Source: an uncultured Clostridia bacterium (lineage in GTDB: Bacteria; Bacillota; Clostridia; TANB77; UBA1234). From it: a DNA stretch of 64,000 bases. A program made the position numbers and the translations under genes. This document shows, in pieces, positions 146-5,673 of the stretch; the first letter of the stretch is position 1; every line of letters starts with the position of its first letter. The stretch covers positions 36,748 through 100,747 of the forward strand of contig CAKPEF010000001.1 of assembly GCA_934149305.1 (NCBI GenBank), in the 5' to 3' direction. Below the pieces are notes generated by a model, which had not been told where the DNA came from, ran no database searches, and worked only from the letters and a program-made list of their open reading frames with translations.

Positions 146-368
146 TTTTTCCTCCCCTCTTACATTTATTCTTTTCATTATACTACTAACAAAAAATTTT
201 TCCCATACTTTTTTCATTATTCAGTCTTTTTTTGTTCTTTATTGTAAAATTTTATTCCATTTTAATTGTTATTTTTTGGCTGTTATGATACGATTATTGT
301 AGAAGGGGTTTATTTCCAAAATGTAGTATATATTTTATTAAAAGAGTAAATATAAAAGGAGTGTAATT

Positions 369-1664
369 ATGTCAGAAAAAATACAAGAAACTAAATCAAG
401 ATTAAAGGAATTAGGGTATTTTGCATCAGAAGATTTAGCAAAAATAGTACTATTATTTGAAGCAGCAGGAAAAAGAGATAAAAAAAGTATTCCAACACTA
501 TTATTACAAGGAAAATCTGGAGCTGGAAAAACATTCTTAGCTGAGACTTTTTCTCAAATGATTGGTGCTGATGAAAAATTCGTACAATGTTTTCCTAGAA
601 TGGGAACAGAGAACTTTCAATATGATGTTAATATCGAAGGTGTAATGAAACAAGATGCAGACAGCTCAATTAAAGCTGGTATATTATTACAAGCTTTACA
701 ACAATCTCAAGAAAGTCCTGTAGTCCTTGTTATAGATGAATTAGACAAAGCAAGACCTGAAGTTGATTCATTTTTATTAGATTTTTTAGAAAATGGAAGA
801 CTAACAACTGGTACAGATACATATGAAAAAGGAAAATTCCCAATTTATACTTTTATTACATCGAATGACAAAAGAGAAATAGATGAAGCATTAATAAATA
901 GAAGTAAAAGAGTTGAAGTTCCTAGACCTAGCAAAGATTTATTTTTAGAAATATTAGGATTACCTGAAAATCACTATTTAGGTTATATTTATGATAAGTG
1001 TCCTAATTTTTCTATAAGACAAGCCAGACAATACATTGAAGATTTAGAAGTTTTAGGAACAGAAATAGATGAAGAAGCATTATCTCAATATATCAATTTA
1101 GATGAATTAGATGTAATGTCATTAGCTGATTTACAGCGAATTTCTGAAATGGAAAATGGAGATTTAGAATTTGAATTACCTGATTTAGAAAGATGTTATA
1201 TTACTATTACTTCTAATAATCAAGAGGGTTGGGTTAAGCTTTTTCAAGATGGAAATAAAGGAAATTTTAGATTATATTCAGATGATAATGAACAAGATAG
1301 AATGTATGTGGATATAGATACAATAGAACAATTACAAATGGCTAGTCAATATATGGATTTTGATGATTATTGCAATAGATATAAAGGCTGGTTTGAATAT
1401 TCATTATCAGATGAAGAAATACAAGCAGATAGTATTATATGGGCAGGAAATAAGAGTAAAAAAGATGGTACAAGATTTGGAATAAAAGTCGAGGAAGATA
1501 AAATGTTTAGAATTGCTATGAATAAAGGAAATACATTCGTTTATTTAGATTCTGCTTCTCCTAATACTTTAGAATCATTCTTAGGTCAACAAAAAGATGA
1601 AATCGAACAAGAATATGATACAGATACAAAATATGGTGATGATGGTAGAGATTATGATGATTAG
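369..1664 (+). CDS. MoxR-like AAA+ ATPase with a ~230-aa C-terminal extension ending in the acidic tail DDGRDYDD
   Basis: Walker A LLLQGKSGAGKTFLAE, Walker B VVLVIDELDKA, sensor-1 FITSND, Arg-finger-like INRSKRV. RBS AAAGGAG upstream of the ATG at 369. Confidence 0.8.
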   Translation: MSEKIQETKSRLKELGYFASEDLAKIVLLFEAAGKRDKKSIPTLLLQGKSGAGKTFLAETFSQMIGADEKFVQCFPRMGTENFQYDVNIEGVMKQDADSSIKAGILLQALQQSQESPVVLVIDELDKARPEVDSFLLDFLENGRLTTGTDTYEKGKFPIYTFITSNDKREIDEALINRSKRVEVPRPSKDLFLEILGLPENHYLGYIYDKCPNFSIRQARQYIEDLEVLGTEIDEEALSQYINLDELDVMSLADLQRISEMENGDLEFELPDLERCYITITSNNQEGWVKLFQDGNKGNFRLYSDDNEQDRMYVDIDTIEQLQMASQYMDFDDYCNRYKGWFEYSLSDEEIQADSIIWAGNKSKKDGTRFGIKVEEDKMFRIAMNKGNTFVYLDSASPNTLESFLGQQKDEIEQEYDTDTKYGDDGRDYDD

Positions 1665-1675
1665 GAGGAATAATA

Positions 1676-2875
1676 ATGGCTCTTCAATATGATATAAATA
1701 AAATATTTGCAGAACTTGAACAACAAGCCAGAAAAAAAAGCAAAAAACATGAAAAAGTTGATCCAACTAAAGAGAATGATCCTATTGAATCACCAGAAGA
1801 TGCTCCACAAACGCAAGAAGTTGCACCTGCTACATCAAAGACTACAGAAGATACACATGGCGGAGATGAAGCATCTAAAGAAATTAAAGATTCTCCAAAC
1901 TCTGTAGATGGTGGTGAAAATCCAGATAAAGAAAACAAAAGTAAGAAAACAAAAAATACTGGTGAAAACGGCAAAGGTGATGGACAAGGTGAAGATTATT
2001 TTATAACAACAGATGGCAAAAATCCTAGTAAAAGCAAACCCAAAACTACTCCAGAAGATTTACAACAAGCTGTTGAAAAATTATTTGAAGAAAAAAAGAA
2101 AAAACAAGATGATTTTAAGAGTCAAAACAGGCAAGAATATTTGAAAAAATACATATTTGAAATTATAAAGAAAATTGCAGCAAAACATGCTGGAATAGAT
2201 AAACAAGATGGTTCAGAAACCTATGATAAAAAACAGATGCTTGGGCATATATTAAAACATCAAAATTATAGATTATTAAGTGATAAATACGATTTAAGAG
2301 ATGCGAGATATGTTCAATTTTTTATTGATACATCTGGAGTTTATGGCTGCGGTTCTAACAAAATATTGCATGAACTTATGCCAGAGGTTATTAGTATGCT
2401 AGAAAGACAAGGTTATGAATGTTATATTGCAGCTTGTGGAAACGGATTTTATCAAAGAGATATGGTTGAAGATGAATATTATGGAACTAGAAAAACACTA
2501 GAAGGTTACAAAACTGGAAAAGTAAGCAAAATAGCTTGCCCTACCCCACAAACTGCAGCTAAAATGGCTAATGAAGCTGAGTTTTCTGTAATACTTGCTG
2601 ATTTTGATGGTTTATCTTCTATTTGCGAAATGGCTAATTTATGTAAAAAAGATAAAATACCATATTTCCTATGTACTGAGGATAGATACCCATGGGAAGA
2701 TCCAACATTACATGATTGGGTTGATCCCGAATTATGTGATTATAATCCTGAACTTGTATATGATGTATCAATGGATGGAAATCCAACTTTAGAACAATAT
2801 GAAGATAGACAATGCTATGATGACTATGAACAAGATGATTATGACCAAGATGATGGTAGGAATTATGATGATTAA
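1676..2875 (+). CDS. VWA-like (degenerate MIDAS) protein with a ~170-aa disordered K/E/T/P-rich N-terminal region; C-terminal tail DDGRNYDD
   Basis: FFIDTSGV (DxSxS-like beta1 motif) and ILADFDG (the TDG-like strand of VWA folds). Start is 12 nt after the ATPase stop with an AGGAGG RBS, so it is translationally coupled. Confidence 0.55.
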   Translation: MALQYDINKIFAELEQQARKKSKKHEKVDPTKENDPIESPEDAPQTQEVAPATSKTTEDTHGGDEASKEIKDSPNSVDGGENPDKENKSKKTKNTGENGKGDGQGEDYFITTDGKNPSKSKPKTTPEDLQQAVEKLFEEKKKKQDDFKSQNRQEYLKKYIFEIIKKIAAKHAGIDKQDGSETYDKKQMLGHILKHQNYRLLSDKYDLRDARYVQFFIDTSGVYGCGSNKILHELMPEVISMLERQGYECYIAACGNGFYQRDMVEDEYYGTRKTLEGYKTGKVSKIACPTPQTAAKMANEAEFSVILADFDGLSSICEMANLCKKDKIPYFLCTEDRYPWEDPTLHDWVDPELCDYNPELVYDVSMDGNPTLEQYEDRQCYDDYEQDDYDQDDGRNYDD

Positions 2876-2889
2876 CAGGAGTTAAAAGT

Positions 2890-3855
2890 ATGATAGATAA
2901 AATTTTAATAACAAAGAAATTAGAAAACTTTTTTATTAAGACTAATCCAGAAAGTTTTCTAAAAGTATTTGTAATCAGTTTTTTATTTGATAAAACTAAT
3001 TATATAGAACCTATTGTAGGTTATGAAAATGCTTTAAATATGTTAGATAAATACATATATAATTTAGAAAATAATATTAAAGCCTTTAAAAAACTAGATA
3101 AATATCATTCTATTTATGCTAAATATGATTTTAAGGCAAAAAGTCTAAAATATTATATGACTAATGATTATAAAAAATTTAAAAATACTTCTTTAAATTC
3201 TGAACAAAAGAAAGTATTTATTATTAAAGAATTTAAAATAATGATGTATAAAGAGTTTGAAACAATTACAAATATTTATACCTTTAATGGAAAAATTGTT
3301 TCTAACAGTTTTTATATTGAGGATATAAATTGTCGTTACCCTGATTATGATGGTGATTTTTCTAATATAATTGATATTTTCTCTGATGTAGAAGTATGCA
3401 ATATTCTTAAACTTAATGATAGAATAAAAACTTATATAGATGAAAACAAAAACTATTTTGTATATTCTACACATATTAGTCAAAGAAATTCAGAAGTAAT
3501 AAACTATGTTTTGTTATGGAGAAATTTTTTAAATAATAAATTATATTATTTTGCAGTAAATAATCCTAAGAAATATTCAGAGAAGTTTATTAATGAGTTT
3601 AATAAAGAATATGAATATATAATATCGAGTGGAAAATATAATTTTATATTAAAAAATAAAGATGTTTTTTCACTTATTGAAAATTATTTACTTCATATAA
3701 GAAATAGAATTGACATTGAAAATAATATACAATATCATCAAGATTTAAGTGTAATATTTAAAATGATGAATCACAAAAAACATCTAACTAAACTGTCAGA
3801 ATATTTATTACATAGTTCAGATTCTAATAATAAATTAAACTATGACAAAATTTAG
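2890..3855 (+). CDS. Hypothetical protein, 321 aa, extremely N/K/Y/I-rich; third gene of the MoxR-VWA operon (candidate effector or sensor)
   Basis: RBS ACAGGAG 8 nt upstream and a 15-nt gap from the VWA gene. No domain I can recognise. Composition is visibly more AT-rich than its neighbours. Confidence 0.5.
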   Translation: MIDKILITKKLENFFIKTNPESFLKVFVISFLFDKTNYIEPIVGYENALNMLDKYIYNLENNIKAFKKLDKYHSIYAKYDFKAKSLKYYMTNDYKKFKNTSLNSEQKKVFIIKEFKIMMYKEFETITNIYTFNGKIVSNSFYIEDINCRYPDYDGDFSNIIDIFSDVEVCNILKLNDRIKTYIDENKNYFVYSTHISQRNSEVINYVLLWRNFLNNKLYYFAVNNPKKYSEKFINEFNKEYEYIISSGKYNFILKNKDVFSLIENYLLHIRNRIDIENNIQYHQDLSVIFKMMNHKKHLTKLSEYLLHSSDSNNKLNYDKI

Positions 3856-3865
3856 GAGGTTCAAT

Positions 3866-3949
3866 ATGGAAAAAAATTTTTTGTTGAAACAGAACAATTT
3901 GATACAAATGTTGCTAATAATCTTAATACAACCAATCCTCTACAAATAA
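3866..3949 (+). CDS. 27-aa hydrophobic micro-ORF MEKNFLLKQNNLIQMLLIILIQPILYK, coupled to the preceding gene
   Basis: AGGAGG at 3854-3859 overlaps the TAG stop of the upstream gene. ATG at 3866, TAA at 3947-3949. Below the ORF-track size cutoff. Confidence 0.3.
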   Translation: MEKNFLLKQNNLIQMLLIILIQPILYK

Positions 3950-4091
3950 CAAATGATACATTGGTTAACGATTTTTTAAATAAAACCGTTTCTTTAGAAT
4001 CTTTGATTGAAAAAGAAATATATAATAACAAATTATAAAATATAATATCAACATATAGTTTAAATATTTGCAAAAATTATATAATATTTTT

Positions 4092-4120
4092 GGGTGAGTA
4101 GAATTTACTCACCCTTTTAC
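4092..4120 (+). terminator. Intrinsic terminator closing the MoxR-VWA operon
   Basis: GGGTGAGTA-GAATT-TACTCACCC perfect 9-bp stem followed by TTTTAC. Confidence 0.6.
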
Positions 4121-4123
4121 TGA

Positions 4124-4384
4124 CTAACAGTTAATCAATTCAGAATATATAATTTCTTCGACACAATGTTTATAATTATTCATAAGCCCAATCCATTTTA
4201 ACGGGTCAGTATCTTTCAAATTTTCATCAATAGGAGTATAATCAGCCTTTTTATGTTTTTTCAAATGTTCTAGTCTTAAATAACCGCATTTTCCAATATT
4301 GTAATTTTTTTCGTATTCATCCTCAGCTAAATATAAAGCAGGAATAAAATAATCTCCTTCCCTATGATAAGTTATTTCTCTCAT
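4124..4384 (-). CDS. TnpV-like (transposon-associated family) protein, apparently internally truncated to 86 aa
   Basis: N-terminal REGDYFIPALYLAEDE...IGKCGYLRLEHLKKH and C-terminal WIGLMNNYKHCVEEIIYSELI match the TnpV-family pattern (GDYLIP...IGKYGRLR..YLKEH ... W.GxMNN....EEI.LxELIY) recalled from memory. The middle ~40 aa are missing. Confidence 0.45.
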   Translation of the reverse strand: MREITYHREGDYFIPALYLAEDEYEKNYNIGKCGYLRLEHLKKHKKADYTPIDENLKDTDPLKWIGLMNNYKHCVEEIIYSELINC

Positions 4385-5172: not shown

Positions 5173-5301
5173 TTATAACACCTCCATATTCTACTAATAT
5201 GAGATATTTTCTAAAAATATTTGTGTTATATTTCAATGTTTACAAAATTCACACTTTTGTATTTTGTTTCATATTCTATAATTAGAAAAGGAGGAAATTT
5301 T

Positions 5302-5673
5302 ATGTTTGATAATGAAAAATGCGAACGCCCTGATTTTGGCAATGATTGCAGATCAATCATTGAAAAATTCTTAACTATTTGCTTACCTGTAACGACTACA
5401 CCTTGTGTTAAGATTGGTAAAATTAAAACTGAATGTTGTGGTAACCCTATTGTTTCATCAAGAAAACACGATATGTGTTGTGATGAGATGAAGAATGGCT
5501 CTTGTAAATTCACAATAATTCAAAAAATGAAAATCGAAATTCCTGTAGACTTTAACGCTGATACTAAAGTAGATGACTTATTTGTTGATTGTGAATTTAA
5601 ACATGATGGTGGTCCTCACGATGATAAACCATGGGGAATACCAGATAAGTCATGTGACAAAGGTTGCTGCTAG
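5302..5673 (+). CDS. Cysteine-rich (15 Cys in 123 aa) cytoplasmic small protein of unknown function
   Basis: AAAGGAGG RBS at 5289-5296 and ATG at 5302, in frame with track ORF 5221-5673. CC and CxC pairs (ECCGNP, MCCDE, CDKGCC). No signal peptide. Confidence 0.5.
   Translation: MFDNEKCERPDFGNDCRSIIEKFLTICLPVTTTPCVKIGKIKTECCGNPIVSSRKHDMCCDEMKNGSCKFTIIQKMKIEIPVDFNADTKVDDLFVDCEFKHDGGPHDDKPWGIPDKSCDKGCC

What the first reader, a model, noticed from the sequence alone, without database searches (positions are those of the whole stretch)
146..4384. MoxR AAA+ ATPase / VWA-like / unknown / micro-ORF operon beside a TnpV remnant: candidate NTP-dependent conflict (defence) module
Four tightly coupled plus-strand genes: 369-1664 is a MoxR-like ATPase with intact Walker A/B; 1676-2875 has a disordered N-terminus and a degenerate VWA (FFIDTSGV, ILADFDG); 2890-3855 is unknown, 321 aa and very AT-rich; 3866-3949 is a 27-aa hydrophobic peptide whose RBS overlaps the upstream stop. 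The operon ends at a strong terminator (4092-4120) and is followed by a truncated TnpV-like gene, a hallmark of mobile-element cargo. MoxR-VWA pairs coupled to variable effectors were predicted as NTP-dependent conflict systems (Kaur/Aravind-type analyses), but this gene set, with its shared C-terminal tail and micro-ORF, does not match any named system I know. Nothing in the surrounding core genes explains its presence.
Basis: partly seen in the sequence, partly recalled or inferred. Interest (0 to 1): 0.8.

Follow-up and report, generated by a model that had tools for sequence, protein, structure and literature searches.

The report
Transposon cargo: AAA ATPase–VWA operon
A four-gene operon of unknown function, built around an ATP-driven motor protein and its adaptor, is the cargo of a jumping genetic element that recently moved it between distantly related gut Clostridia, which makes it a reasonable but unproven candidate for a new accessory, possibly defence, system.

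Summary
Two details need correcting.

- **Micro-ORF:** the "27-aa hydrophobic micro-ORF" is a frameshifted copy of a conserved 57-aa hydrophilic gene (g4). The A-run reads A7 here and A8 in relatives.
- **VWA call:** it holds only indirectly. There is no direct Pfam hit and the fold searches were non-specific. However, the family aligns by profile (99.8%) with distant homologues that pass Pfam VWA_CoxE.

g1 is an active-looking AAA_5 ATPase whose closest solved relative is midasin. It scores below the Pfam cut-off for MoxR proper. g1 and g2 form a rare pair that is adjacent in every locus examined, across Bacteria and Archaea. The pair is marked by a hyperconserved acidic motif (…SEDVHGGDEAT…) in g2's disordered linker. 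g3 is basic, has 18.5% GC and a tentative zincin-like fold without HExxH. g3 and g4 occur only in the Clostridia clade.

**Main new result:** the module (window ~242-4120, plus TnpV) is 98-99% identical in four unrelated genomic contexts. One of these has an intact Tn4451-like mobilisable transposon (TnpX-TnpW-Mob-[module]-TnpV). The module occupies the slot that holds an aminoglycoside-resistance gene on an enterobacterial plasmid.

No known defence system matches. A defence role is plausible but unproven.

The parts
242..368 (+). Left boundary of the conserved mobile module, with a putative extended -10 promoter (TTTAAT-17-TGtTATGAT, about 261-289) and the 5' UTR with the RBS of g1
   Evidence: Nucleotide homology to six other loci starts at window 242-248, and the flanks upstream of that point are unrelated. 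The promoter reading is my inference from the sequence; the consensus scan did not list it.
369..1664 (+). g1: 431-aa AAA+ ATPase. It has an AAA_5-type core (about 20-195), a C-terminal domain of about 200 aa of unknown fold, and an acidic Tyr-rich tail ending DDGRDYDD.
   Evidence: Pfam AAA_5 6.4e-14; AAA_3 24.2 bits, below the 27 cut-off. The family profile's best PDB match is midasin (3e-17), followed by ClpB D2 and Cdc48. The catalytic motifs are invariant. The C-terminal domain has no PDB sequence match.
1676..2875 (+). g2: 399-aa CoxE-type VWA-like adaptor. It has an N-terminal helix, a disordered acidic linker carrying the hyperconserved motif (about 48-80: EVAPATSKTTEDTHGGDEASKEIKDSPN), a helical region (126-205), a reduced alpha/beta domain with a MIDAS-like D218-x-S220…S227 and D309-x-D311-G312, and an acidic tail ending DDGRNYDD.
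   Evidence: AF2 model: pLDDT is above 85 for 212-365 and below 40 for 26-116. Alignment A1 gives the invariant residues. hhalign to distant homologues gives 99.8%. Two of those homologues pass Pfam VWA_CoxE. tblastn links the family to annotated 'VWA domain-containing protein' genes.
2890..3855 (+). g3: 321-aa basic protein (pI 9.0) rich in K, N and Y, 18.5% GC, found only in the Clostridia clade. Tentative zincin-like fold without HExxH. Candidate client or effector of g1-g2.
3866..4038 (+). g4 pseudogene: a conserved 57-aa acidic small protein, frameshifted here by loss of one A in the run 3870-3876. The reported 27-aa ORF 3866-3949 is the out-of-frame product.
   Evidence: The intact 57-58-aa gene is present in L011, L014, L018-L020 and L053. 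L053 is the same locus context as the window. The frameshifted A7 allele is seen in at least 5 independent samples.
4092..4120 (+). Intrinsic terminator closing the operon (10-bp stem, 5 G-C pairs, then a T-run). It is conserved with the module in L014.
4124..4384 (-). TnpV remnant (86 aa; in-frame deletion of residues 51-84 of the 120-aa protein). It is the last surviving backbone gene of a Tn4451-like mobilisable transposon.
   Evidence: Pfam TnpV 1.2e-16. Comparison with L019 TnpV. No TnpX, TnpW or TnpZ anywhere in the 64-kb window.
1638..1676 (+). 39-nt direct repeat, copy 1 (the 3' end of g1 plus the RBS of g2). Copy 2 lies at 2849-2887 (the 3' end of g2 plus the RBS of g3).
   Evidence: the repeat finder family D2, 82% identity.

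Best explanation
Window ~242-4384 is the decayed remnant of a Tn4451-like integrative mobilisable element. The element's sole cargo is a four-gene operon.

**Shown**
- g1 is an AAA_5-class (midasin/MoxR-like) ATPase with all catalytic motifs intact.
- g2 is a divergent, reduced CoxE-type VWA-like protein.
- The two genes lie next to each other wherever the family occurs, in Bacteria and Archaea.
- g3 and g4 are additions specific to one Clostridia clade.
- The module has recently moved between distantly related genomes on the transposon.

**Inferred mechanism**
- As in other AAA_5/MoxR-VWA pairs (CoxD/E, CbbQ/O, NorQ/D, RavA/ViaA, midasin), a g1 hexamer uses ATP to pull on or remodel a protein.
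- g2 holds that protein through a metal-dependent (MIDAS-like) site that binds an acidic side chain.
- The basic protein g3, and perhaps the small acidic g4, is the client or effector that is switched on or released.
- The acidic Tyr-rich tails of g1 and g2, and the hyperconserved acidic linker motif of g2, are the likely docking or pseudo-substrate elements.

**Why this points to an accessory trait**
The operon sits in the accessory-gene slot of a transposon, lands in a different place in almost every genome, and sometimes lies beside abortive-infection genes. The trait it confers is therefore most likely a conflict function (defence against phage or other mobile DNA). That last step is the weakest. 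In this particular window the module is partly decayed: g4 is frameshifted and TnpV is deleted internally.
For: **Mobility**
- The module is 98.4-99.0% identical to L018, L019 and L020, with unrelated flanks.
- The rplT-infC region of L019 is only 69% identical to the window's.
- The 30 loci catalogued have almost as many different sets of flanking genes.
- L019 has an intact backbone: TnpX (Resolvase + Recombinase + Zn_ribbon + DUF4368), TnpW, Mob_Pre and TnpV.
- L018, L020 and L023 are deletion derivatives.
- The same backbone carries aac(6')-aph(2'') in the same slot on pD610-HI2.
- In the Tn4451 family, TnpX alone suffices for transposition and target specificity is low (PMC5704250).

**Pair identity**
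- Pfam AAA_5; midasin is the best PDB relative; catalytic motifs are invariant.
- hhalign of A1 against A5 gives 99.8% over 277 columns, including DxSGS and the aligned xDxDG motif (ADFDG in A1, GDxDG in A5).
- L044 and L046 g2 pass the Pfam VWA_CoxE threshold.
- g1 lies immediately upstream of g2 in all 46 genome loci, and in every metagenome locus that has enough upstream sequence.

**Client idea**
- g3 strictly co-occurs with the pair in the clade.
- pI is 9.0 for g3, against 4.4 for g1 and 4.8 for g2.
- Among loci without g3, only L001's g1 has a short acidic end; the distant ones (L039-L046) have none.
- Other clades carry different third genes.

**Conflict context**
- AbiEi/AbiEii lie directly downstream in L044.
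- DUF4238 and Hypoth_Ymh lie nearby in L046.
- MzaA, PDC-S02, AbiE and methyltransferase hits occur among 116 flanking proteins.
- A YezG-like immunity gene is inserted inside the operon in L008.
Against: - No protein matches any PADLOC defence model beyond the generic P-loop.
- g2 has no direct Pfam VWA hit.
- Foldseek finds nothing at E<=1e-3.
- In the window's clade the DxSxS motif is interrupted by a 5-residue insertion (DTSG-VYGCG-S), so metal binding may be altered.
- Most flanking genes are ordinary housekeeping genes, and the defence-gene neighbours are few.
- The shared tail is also a DNA repeat that overlaps the next gene's RBS. It may therefore partly reflect translational coupling or gene conversion rather than protein function.
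- No complex prediction and no experiment was possible.
Confidence: 0.45

Rival explanations
1. Non-defence accessory trait. g1-g2 is a dedicated maturation or activation chaperone (CoxD/E-, NorQ/D- or CbbQ/O-style) for g3. On this view g3 is the real payload, an enzyme or binding protein that confers some selectable property such as tolerance to an antimicrobial, a metal or a stress. That would parallel the resistance genes carried in the same transposon slot.
For: - All experimentally characterised MoxR-VWA pairs are enzyme-maturation or activation chaperones (established knowledge; summarised in PMC7159879).
- The same slot holds catP in Tn4451 (PMC3158075, PMC5704250) and aac(6')-aph(2'') in pD610-HI2.
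- g3 is always encoded directly after the pair in this clade and has an enzyme-like (zincin-like) fold.
- g3's GC content of 18.5% suggests a separately acquired payload.
Against: - g3 lacks HExxH or any recognisable catalytic motif.
- The g1-g2 pair exists without g3 in C. argentinense and in other phyla.
- No resistance-type domain was detected.
Confidence: 0.25
2. Selfish addiction or exclusion module. The operon behaves like a toxin-antitoxin or post-segregational system that stabilises the transposon. g3 and/or g4 would be the toxic component, held in check by the ATPase-adaptor pair.
For: - The operon is carried on a mobile element with no other cargo.
- IMEs commonly carry TA modules (PMC5704250).
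- The g4 homopolymer frameshift is polymorphic within a single locus context, as expected if one component is dispensable or costly.
Against: - The module is very large for a TA system.
- It persists intact after the transposon backbone has been lost in most loci, which implies selection on the host.
- It shows no similarity to known toxins or antitoxins.
Confidence: 0.1
3. The module serves the mobile element itself. It would be a transposition, replication or transfer helper (an AAA+ regulator like IstB, TnsC or TniB, or a DnaC-like loader), or an assembly chaperone like the MoxR-vWA pair of Acidianus two-tailed virus.
For: - g1 has weak sub-threshold hits to TniB, IstB, DnaC-like and clamp-loader models.
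- MoxR-vWA pairs are reported to act in virion assembly (PMC7824862).
Against: - TnpX alone suffices for Tn4451-family transposition (PMC5704250).
- Relatives of the backbone function with unrelated cargo in this slot.
- The pair occurs far from any transposon in other phyla.
- There are no relatives in 2.9 million viral contigs or in 50,697 phage records.
Confidence: 0.05
4. Conserved housekeeping chaperone for a neighbouring core enzyme.
For: An ordinary CoxE-like AAA+VWA pair does sit among core genes in Acinetobacter.
Against: - The 30 loci catalogued have almost as many different sets of flanking genes.
- The module is 98-99% identical across genomes whose core genes are about 69% identical.
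- It sits inside a transposon in L019.
Confidence: 0.02

Closest known systems
MoxR/AAA_5-VWA chaperone pairs (CoxD/CoxE, RavA/ViaA, CbbQ/CbbO, NorQ/NorD, BchI/BchD, CobS/CobT)
   Same: - An AAA_5-class ATPase gene sits immediately upstream of a gene for a protein with a C-terminal CoxE-type VWA-like domain (DxSxS … D-G).
- An acidic linker precedes the VWA domain.
- A likely client is encoded alongside.
   Different: - g1 falls below the Pfam MoxR (AAA_3) threshold and has an extra C-terminal domain of about 200 aa that is unknown.
- g2's alpha/beta domain is reduced (about 150 aa), and its DxSxS is interrupted in this clade.
- g2 carries a hyperconserved linker motif (SEDVHGGDEAT…SPN). This region was not covered by the alignment to the ordinary CoxE-like relative examined.
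- No metalloenzyme client is present.
- The pair is mobile rather than tied to a pathway operon.
Midasin/Rea1 (eukaryotic AAA_5 ring + D/E-rich linker + MIDAS domain)
   Same: - It is the best solved-structure match to the g1 family profile (3e-17).
- The logic is the same: AAA_5 motor, long acidic disordered linker, then a MIDAS-type domain that grips a client.
   Different: - Here the architecture is split into two small proteins, with one AAA module per chain rather than six fused modules.
- The system is prokaryotic and has no link to ribosome assembly.
- The resemblance is functional analogy plus AAA_5 homology, not orthology.
vWA-MoxR ternary conflict systems (VMAP, iSTAND, FtsH and beta-propeller types; Kaur, Burroughs, Iyer & Aravind 2020, PMC7159879)
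   Same: [quoted passage not shown]
- Mobile, with variable genomic context.
- Predicted ATP-dependent regulation of an effector.
   Different: - No VMAP-C, iSTAND, FtsH or beta-propeller component was detected.
- No effector domains are fused to the VWA protein.
- The phyletic range differs: unicellular gut Clostridia, CPR bacteria and archaea, rather than multicellular Actinobacteria and Cyanobacteria.
Tn4451/Tn4453 family of integrative mobilisable elements (TnpX large serine recombinase)
   Same: - L019 has the full gene set: TnpX (with DUF4368), TnpW, Mob_Pre (TnpZ-like) and TnpV.
- A single accessory slot sits between Mob and TnpV.
- Insertion sites are many and unrelated.
- The window retains TnpV.
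   Different: - The cargo is a 3.9-kb four-gene operon instead of catP or another resistance gene.
- No TnpY was seen.
- In the linear map the element's ends fall between tnpX and tnpV rather than between tnpW and tnpX.
- In the window the backbone is almost wholly deleted.
Viral MoxR-vWA assembly chaperones (Acidianus two-tailed virus p618/p892; jumbo-phage MoxR + vWA fused to a metallopeptidase; PMC7824862)
   Same: - A MoxR-like/vWA pair carried on a mobile genome.
- In jumbo phages the pair is associated with a metallopeptidase-fold domain, as g3's tentative fold is here.
   Different: - No homologue was found in the viral collections.
- There are no virion genes nearby.
- g3 lacks the metallopeptidase motif.

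Membership tests
MoxR AAA+ ATPase (Pfam AAA_3, PF07726) | Score at or above the Pfam gathering threshold for AAA_3 | tested here: not met
   24.2 bits against a cut-off of 27. A distant homologue (L037) reaches 27.3.
AAA_5 (dynein/midasin/MoxR-related) ATPase | Pfam AAA_5 above threshold, with intact Walker A, Walker B, sensor 1 and arginine residues | tested here: met
   52.6 bits against a cut-off of 22. G48-T55, D123-E124, N166, R169, R178 and R217 are invariant or nearly so. Midasin is the best PDB match.
MoxR-VWA chaperone pair | The ATPase gene is adjacent to, and co-directional with, a VWA-domain gene across relatives | tested here: met
   g1 lies immediately upstream of g2 in 46 of 46 genome loci, and in every metagenome locus with enough upstream DNA.
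VWA_CoxE (PF05762) | Sequence membership in the Pfam family | tested here: inconclusive
   The window's g2 has no hit, and one A1 member hits at 0.016. However, the homologues L044 (28.5 bits) and L046 (34.7 bits) pass the 26.4 cut-off, and they align to the g2 family at hhalign 99.8%.
VWA domain | MIDAS motif DxSxS plus a downstream Thr/Asp (…DG) | tested here: inconclusive
   The family consensus is FIDTSGS … ADFDG, with D218, S220, S227, D309, D311 and G312 invariant. In the window's clade a 5-residue insertion splits the motif (DTSG-VYGCG-S). Metal binding cannot be tested with these tools.
VWA domain | VWA fold in the predicted structure | tested here: inconclusive
vWA-MoxR ternary conflict systems (Kaur et al. 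2020) | The third component carries VMAP-C, iSTAND, FtsH or a beta-propeller; effector domains are fused to the vWA protein | tested here: not met
   g3 and g4 hit no Pfam family, and g2 has no fused effector domain. The definition is taken from PMC7159879.
Known or candidate anti-phage systems (PADLOC-DB v2) | Proteins match the models of one system | tested here: not met
   Only P-loop-level hits for g1 (PDC-M37B 3.5e-09, TRIP13, DolB, IetA). g2, g3 and their distant homologues have none.
Tn4451/Tn4453-family mobilisable transposon | Large serine recombinase TnpX (Resolvase + Recombinase + DUF4368), Mob_Pre relaxase, TnpW and TnpV flanking an accessory slot | tested here: met
   All four genes are present in L019 around the module. 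The window itself has only TnpV, with an internal deletion. Excision activity cannot be tested with these tools.
Zincin/gluzincin metallopeptidase (for g3) | HExxH (or a variant) zinc-binding motif on the active-site helix | tested here: not met
   There is no HExxH or HxxEH in g3 or in its 19 aligned homologues.
Zincin/gluzincin metallopeptidase (for g3) | Thermolysin-like catalytic-domain fold | tested here: inconclusive

The most novel reading that the evidence does not exclude
The g1-g2 pair defines an undescribed two-gene system that spans Bacteria and Archaea.

- It combines an AAA_5 ATPase with a CoxE-type VWA protein carrying a hyperconserved acidic 'SEDVHGGDEAT…DSPN' linker motif. The motif is about 64% identical between Clostridia and Gammaproteobacteria, while the proteins overall are about 18% identical.
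- In gut Clostridia the pair has recruited a zincin-fold pseudo-peptidase (g3) and a 57-aa peptide (g4).
- It is currently spreading as the sole cargo of Tn4451-like transposons because it is a new kind of ATP-gated anti-invader system.
- The invariant motif would then be either the handle by which the motor grips its adaptor or a decoy for a conserved invader or host component.
Probability: 0.3. Interest if true: 0.8.

Novelty: new variant of a known kind. Interest (0 to 1): 0.6.

Why it matters
**Potential significance**
- If the module is a defence or conflict system, it would be the first MoxR/midasin-type ATPase-VWA system found on a transposon of the kind that usually carries antibiotic-resistance genes.
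- It would also give an experimentally tractable example of the NTP-dependent vWA-MoxR conflict systems. As far as I know, those are so far only predicted.

**Useful regardless of function**
- The natural series of an intact transposon, deletion derivatives and a bare module gives a clear picture of how cargo becomes fixed in gut Clostridia chromosomes.
- The hyperconserved linker motif is a concrete and unexplained handle on how these ATPases engage their VWA partners.

**Caveats**
- The family is rare: 37 clusters at 50% identity among 1.84 billion representative proteins.
- It comes mostly from uncultured organisms.
- The function is unknown.

Tried and rejected
**Direct family scans**
- Pfam, PHROGs, NCBIfam and PADLOC on g2, g3 and g4 gave nothing.
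- PDB sequence searches with single sequences and with profiles of g2, g3 and the g1 C-terminal domain gave only low-complexity noise or nothing.

**Phage origin**
- Rejected. There is no DNA or protein match in 50,697 phage records, and no relative in the IMG/VR viral contigs.

**Other ideas tested and dropped**
- TOPRIM or serine-recombinase reading of g2's D…DxD motifs, which would have made the module self-mobilising. Dropped after the VWA_CoxE link and the discovery of the TnpX backbone.
- g3-like identity of the L037 middle gene. hhalign gave 4% probability, not significant.
- The upstream 307-aa ORF in C. argentinense as a g3 homologue. BLASTP was not significant.
- An empty-site search using the exact neighbouring deacetylase. 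Every contig that extended past the deacetylase showed TnpV (partial in two short ones), and the module wherever the contig reached that far.
- An RNA element in the leader or the operon. Rfam gave only sub-threshold noise.

**Searches that failed or could not run**
- A search with the consensus motif peptide failed because no candidate shared enough exact words.
- Literature search for the motif found no paper.
- The afdb50 fold library was unavailable.
- The first genome scan with alignment A1 failed for lack of a conserved stretch.

Full report
**1. The observation**

The four plus-strand ORFs are where the finding says, with gaps of 11, 14 and 10 nt and strong ribosome-binding sites.
- A hairpin plus T-run terminator lies at 4092-4114.
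- A convergent 86-aa TnpV-family ORF lies at 4124-4384 (Pfam 1.2e-16).
- g1 (369-1664) hits Pfam AAA_5 (6.4e-14) and AAA_2. It stays below the cut-off for AAA_3, the MoxR family proper (24.2 against 27 bits).
- g2 (1676-2875) and g3 (2890-3855) hit nothing in Pfam, PHROGs, NCBIfam or PADLOC.
- All three are real, conserved genes. g2 has 313 homologues and g3 has 116, down to 42% identity. All are unnamed and come from Clostridia metagenome bins.

**2. The micro-ORF is a pseudogene**

Relatives encode a conserved 57-58-aa hydrophilic protein (g4) from the same start codon and RBS. An example is MEKKFFVETEQF…NDFLNKTVSLESLIEKEIYNNKL.
- The window has A7T6 at 3870-3882, where intact alleles have A8T6 or A7T7.
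- This throws the frame into the 27-aa 'hydrophobic peptide'. The rest of g4 is still readable in another frame up to 4038.
- The A7 allele recurs in at least five independent samples of the same locus. One sample (L053) has A8 and an intact gene. The lesion is therefore real and polymorphic, not an assembly error.

**3. What g1 and g2 are**

*g1*
- Walker A, Walker B, sensor 1 and the arginines are invariant across a 13-sequence alignment that includes archaeal and CPR members.
- The family profile's best solved relative is midasin (3.3e-17), ahead of ClpB D2 and Cdc48.
- Its C-terminal domain of about 200 aa matches nothing.

*g2 structure*
- The AF2 model shows an N-terminal helix, a disordered stretch (26-116), a helical region (126-205) and a confident alpha/beta domain (212-365).
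- Foldseek finds nothing at E<=1e-3, with CMG2 VWA domains among weak hits.

*g2 sequence*
- An exhaustive search of 1.84 billion representative proteins with the C-terminal half found only 37 clusters. Their alignment shows invariant D218, S220, S227, N256, G257, D309, D311 and G312. That corresponds to a DxSGS … CGNGF … ADFDG pattern.
- Distant homologues from Gammaproteobacteria, Bdellovibrionales, Saccharimonadales, WWE3 and an archaeon align to the family at hhalign 99.8% over 277 columns.
- Two of them pass Pfam's VWA_CoxE threshold.
- The L046 g2, one of them, matches annotated 'VWA domain-containing protein' genes that lie next to AAA ATPases.

I therefore accept g2 as a divergent, reduced CoxE-type VWA-like protein. 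I note that in the window's own clade the DxSxS is split by a 5-residue insertion.

**4. A tightly linked pair with an unexplained motif**

- g1 lies immediately upstream of g2 in all 46 genome loci, and in every metagenome locus with enough upstream DNA. In a few there is one intervening gene.
- The most conserved part of g2 is not a folded domain. It is a segment of about 40 residues in the disordered acidic linker: …EEVAEATSKTSEDVHGGDEATKDIEDSPNAADDG….
- Between the window and a gammaproteobacterial homologue this segment is about 64% identical, while the aligned proteins are about 18% identical overall.
- I found no paper containing the core motif string 'EDVHGG'. I have no tested explanation for it.

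**5. The clade-specific parts**

- g3 and g4 occur only in the Clostridia clade, and there g3 always follows g2.
- g3 is basic (pI 9.0, against 4.4 for g1 and 4.8 for g2) and far more AT-rich than the rest (18.5% GC against 29-32%).
- No HExxH or variant is present. The zincin-like fold is tentative, and if real it is non-canonical or catalytically dead.
- g1 and g2 both end in acidic, Tyr-rich tails (…DDGRDYDD). Among loci without g3, only L001's g1 has a short acidic end, and the distant homologues (L039-L046) have none.
- The last 39 nt of g1 and g2, including the next gene's RBS, form a direct DNA repeat. Part of the resemblance may therefore reflect coupling signals or gene conversion.
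- Other clades have different third genes: a conserved middle gene in L039-L041, a 337-aa ORF in L037, or none.

**6. Mobility (the main new result)**

*Boundaries and contexts*
- Nucleotide homology to relatives starts sharply at window 242-248. This is just upstream of a conserved extended -10-like promoter.
- It ends after the terminator or after TnpV.
- The module is 98.4-99.0% identical in the window, L018, L019 and L020, yet the flanks are unrelated.
- The rplT-infC region of L019 is only 69% identical to the window's. This indicates recent horizontal transfer between distant Clostridia.
- The 30 loci catalogued have almost as many different sets of flanking genes. Examples include insertion between rplT and leuS, beside aspS-gatCAB, and after a cation-efflux gene.

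*The transposon*
- In L019 the module sits inside a complete element of about 9 kb. Its gene order is TnpX (Resolvase + Recombinase + Zn_ribbon + DUF4368), TnpW, Mob_Pre relaxase, the module, then a 120-aa TnpV. It is inserted between agrB and a pseudouridine synthase gene.
- L020, L018 and L023 are deletion derivatives of the same element.
- The window keeps only TnpV, which carries an in-frame 34-aa deletion. There is no TnpX, TnpW or TnpZ anywhere in its 64 kb.
- An enterobacterial IncHI2 plasmid carries the same backbone (75-82% identity) with aac(6')-aph(2'') in exactly this slot.
- This matches the Tn4451/Tn4453 family. In that family TnpX alone drives excision and integration at many GA sites, TnpZ mobilises the element, and a single accessory gene (catP) is carried (PMC5704250, PMC3158075).

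**7. Function**

Nothing matches a known defence system. The module also lacks the defining third components of the published vWA-MoxR ternary systems.

Circumstantial support for a conflict role:
- the cargo position on a transposon and the variable insertion site;
- AbiEi/AbiEii directly downstream in L044;
- DUF4238 and Hypoth_Ymh near L046;
- a YezG-like immunity gene inserted in the operon in L008;
- a handful of defence-model hits (MzaA, PDC-S02, AbiE, methyltransferases) among 116 flanking proteins.

Most neighbours are housekeeping genes, and I could not run an enrichment control.

By analogy with characterised AAA_5/MoxR-VWA machines, the most likely mechanism is ATP-driven remodelling of a client held by the VWA adaptor. 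g3, with or without g4, would be that client or effector. Whether the outcome is defence, another selectable trait or element addiction remains open.

**8. Verdict**

- The anatomy is largely as described. The mobile-cargo inference is now proven in relatives. The housekeeping alternative is excluded.
- The micro-ORF is an artefact of a frameshift, the VWA call is indirect, and the defence function is unproven.
- This is a new variant of a known kind (an AAA_5/MoxR-VWA pair) with undescribed partners, an unexplained hyperconserved motif and an unusual vehicle.
- In this window the module is partly decayed: g4 is frameshifted and the transposon backbone is lost.

Noticed in passing
g2 residues about 48-80 (window 1817-1915); alignment A5 from loci L039-L046; metagenome loci L056-L135: A linker motif of about 40 residues (…EEVAEATSKTSEDVHGGDEATKDIEDSPNAADDG…) in a predicted disordered region is far better conserved across Bacteria, CPR and Archaea than the folded domains of the same protein. 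Its partner or role is unknown.
   Followed up: partly
window 3870-3882; L053 against L048-L051 and L054: The A-run at the start of g4 is A7 (frameshifted) in at least five samples and A8 (intact) in one sample of the same chromosomal locus. This could be phase variation by slippage, or a spreading loss-of-function allele.
   Followed up: partly
window 1984-1995; g2 lengths: The disordered linker of g2 varies from 399 to 533 aa among otherwise near-identical modules. The window lacks about 190 nt that are present in L018-L020, which points to repeat expansion and contraction in the acidic low-complexity region.
   Followed up: no
L008/L009 5493-6222: In one lineage two genes have been inserted between g1 and g2: a 62-aa ORF matching the g2 N-terminus, and a YezG-like (polymorphic-toxin immunity) gene.
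   Followed up: no
L037 1778-7053: A Clostridia MAG has a 1024-aa tandem double-AAA version of g1. A 337-aa K/N/Y-rich ORF lies between g1 and g2, and a two-component system follows. Its similarity to g3 is not significant.
   Followed up: partly
L039-L041 (middle genes at L039 6621-7178, L040 6462-7343, L041 3232-4386): MAGs from Bdellovibrionales, Pseudomonadales and an archaeon share a different conserved gene between g1 and g2 (54-56% identity, no Pfam hit). This suggests interchangeable third components.
   Followed up: partly
metagenome loci L104-L129: A large subfamily has a g1 of about 660 aa overlapping a g2 of 530-564 aa. The literature describes a MoxR-vWA pair (p618/p892) needed for tail development in Acidianus two-tailed virus. 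A relation between the two was not tested.
   Followed up: no
L047 (K. pneumoniae pD610-HI2 210574-222932); hits H3-H7: IncHI2 plasmids of Klebsiella, Citrobacter, Enterobacter and Salmonella carry a Firmicute-type TnpX-TnpW-Mob-TnpV element with aac(6')-aph(2'') cargo. Its backbone is 75-82% identical to the Clostridia element.
   Followed up: partly
L001 / L038 (C. argentinense pRSJ17_1, 119950-122089): The 140-kb C. argentinense plasmid pRSJ17_1 carries a g1-g2 pair (38-39% identity) without g3 or g4. It sits next to a tyrosine recombinase gene and a radical-SAM/SPASM peptide-maturation cluster.
   Followed up: partly
window 5221-5673 (+): A 150-aa cysteine-rich ORF (CC and CxxC-type clusters) with no Pfam hit lies just beyond the polysaccharide deacetylase gene.
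   Followed up: no
P0204 (g3 homologue): One g3 homologue has a different C-terminus carrying an Eco57I-type methylase signature (PF07669). This is probably a fusion or truncation caused by an adjacent restriction-modification gene.
   Followed up: no
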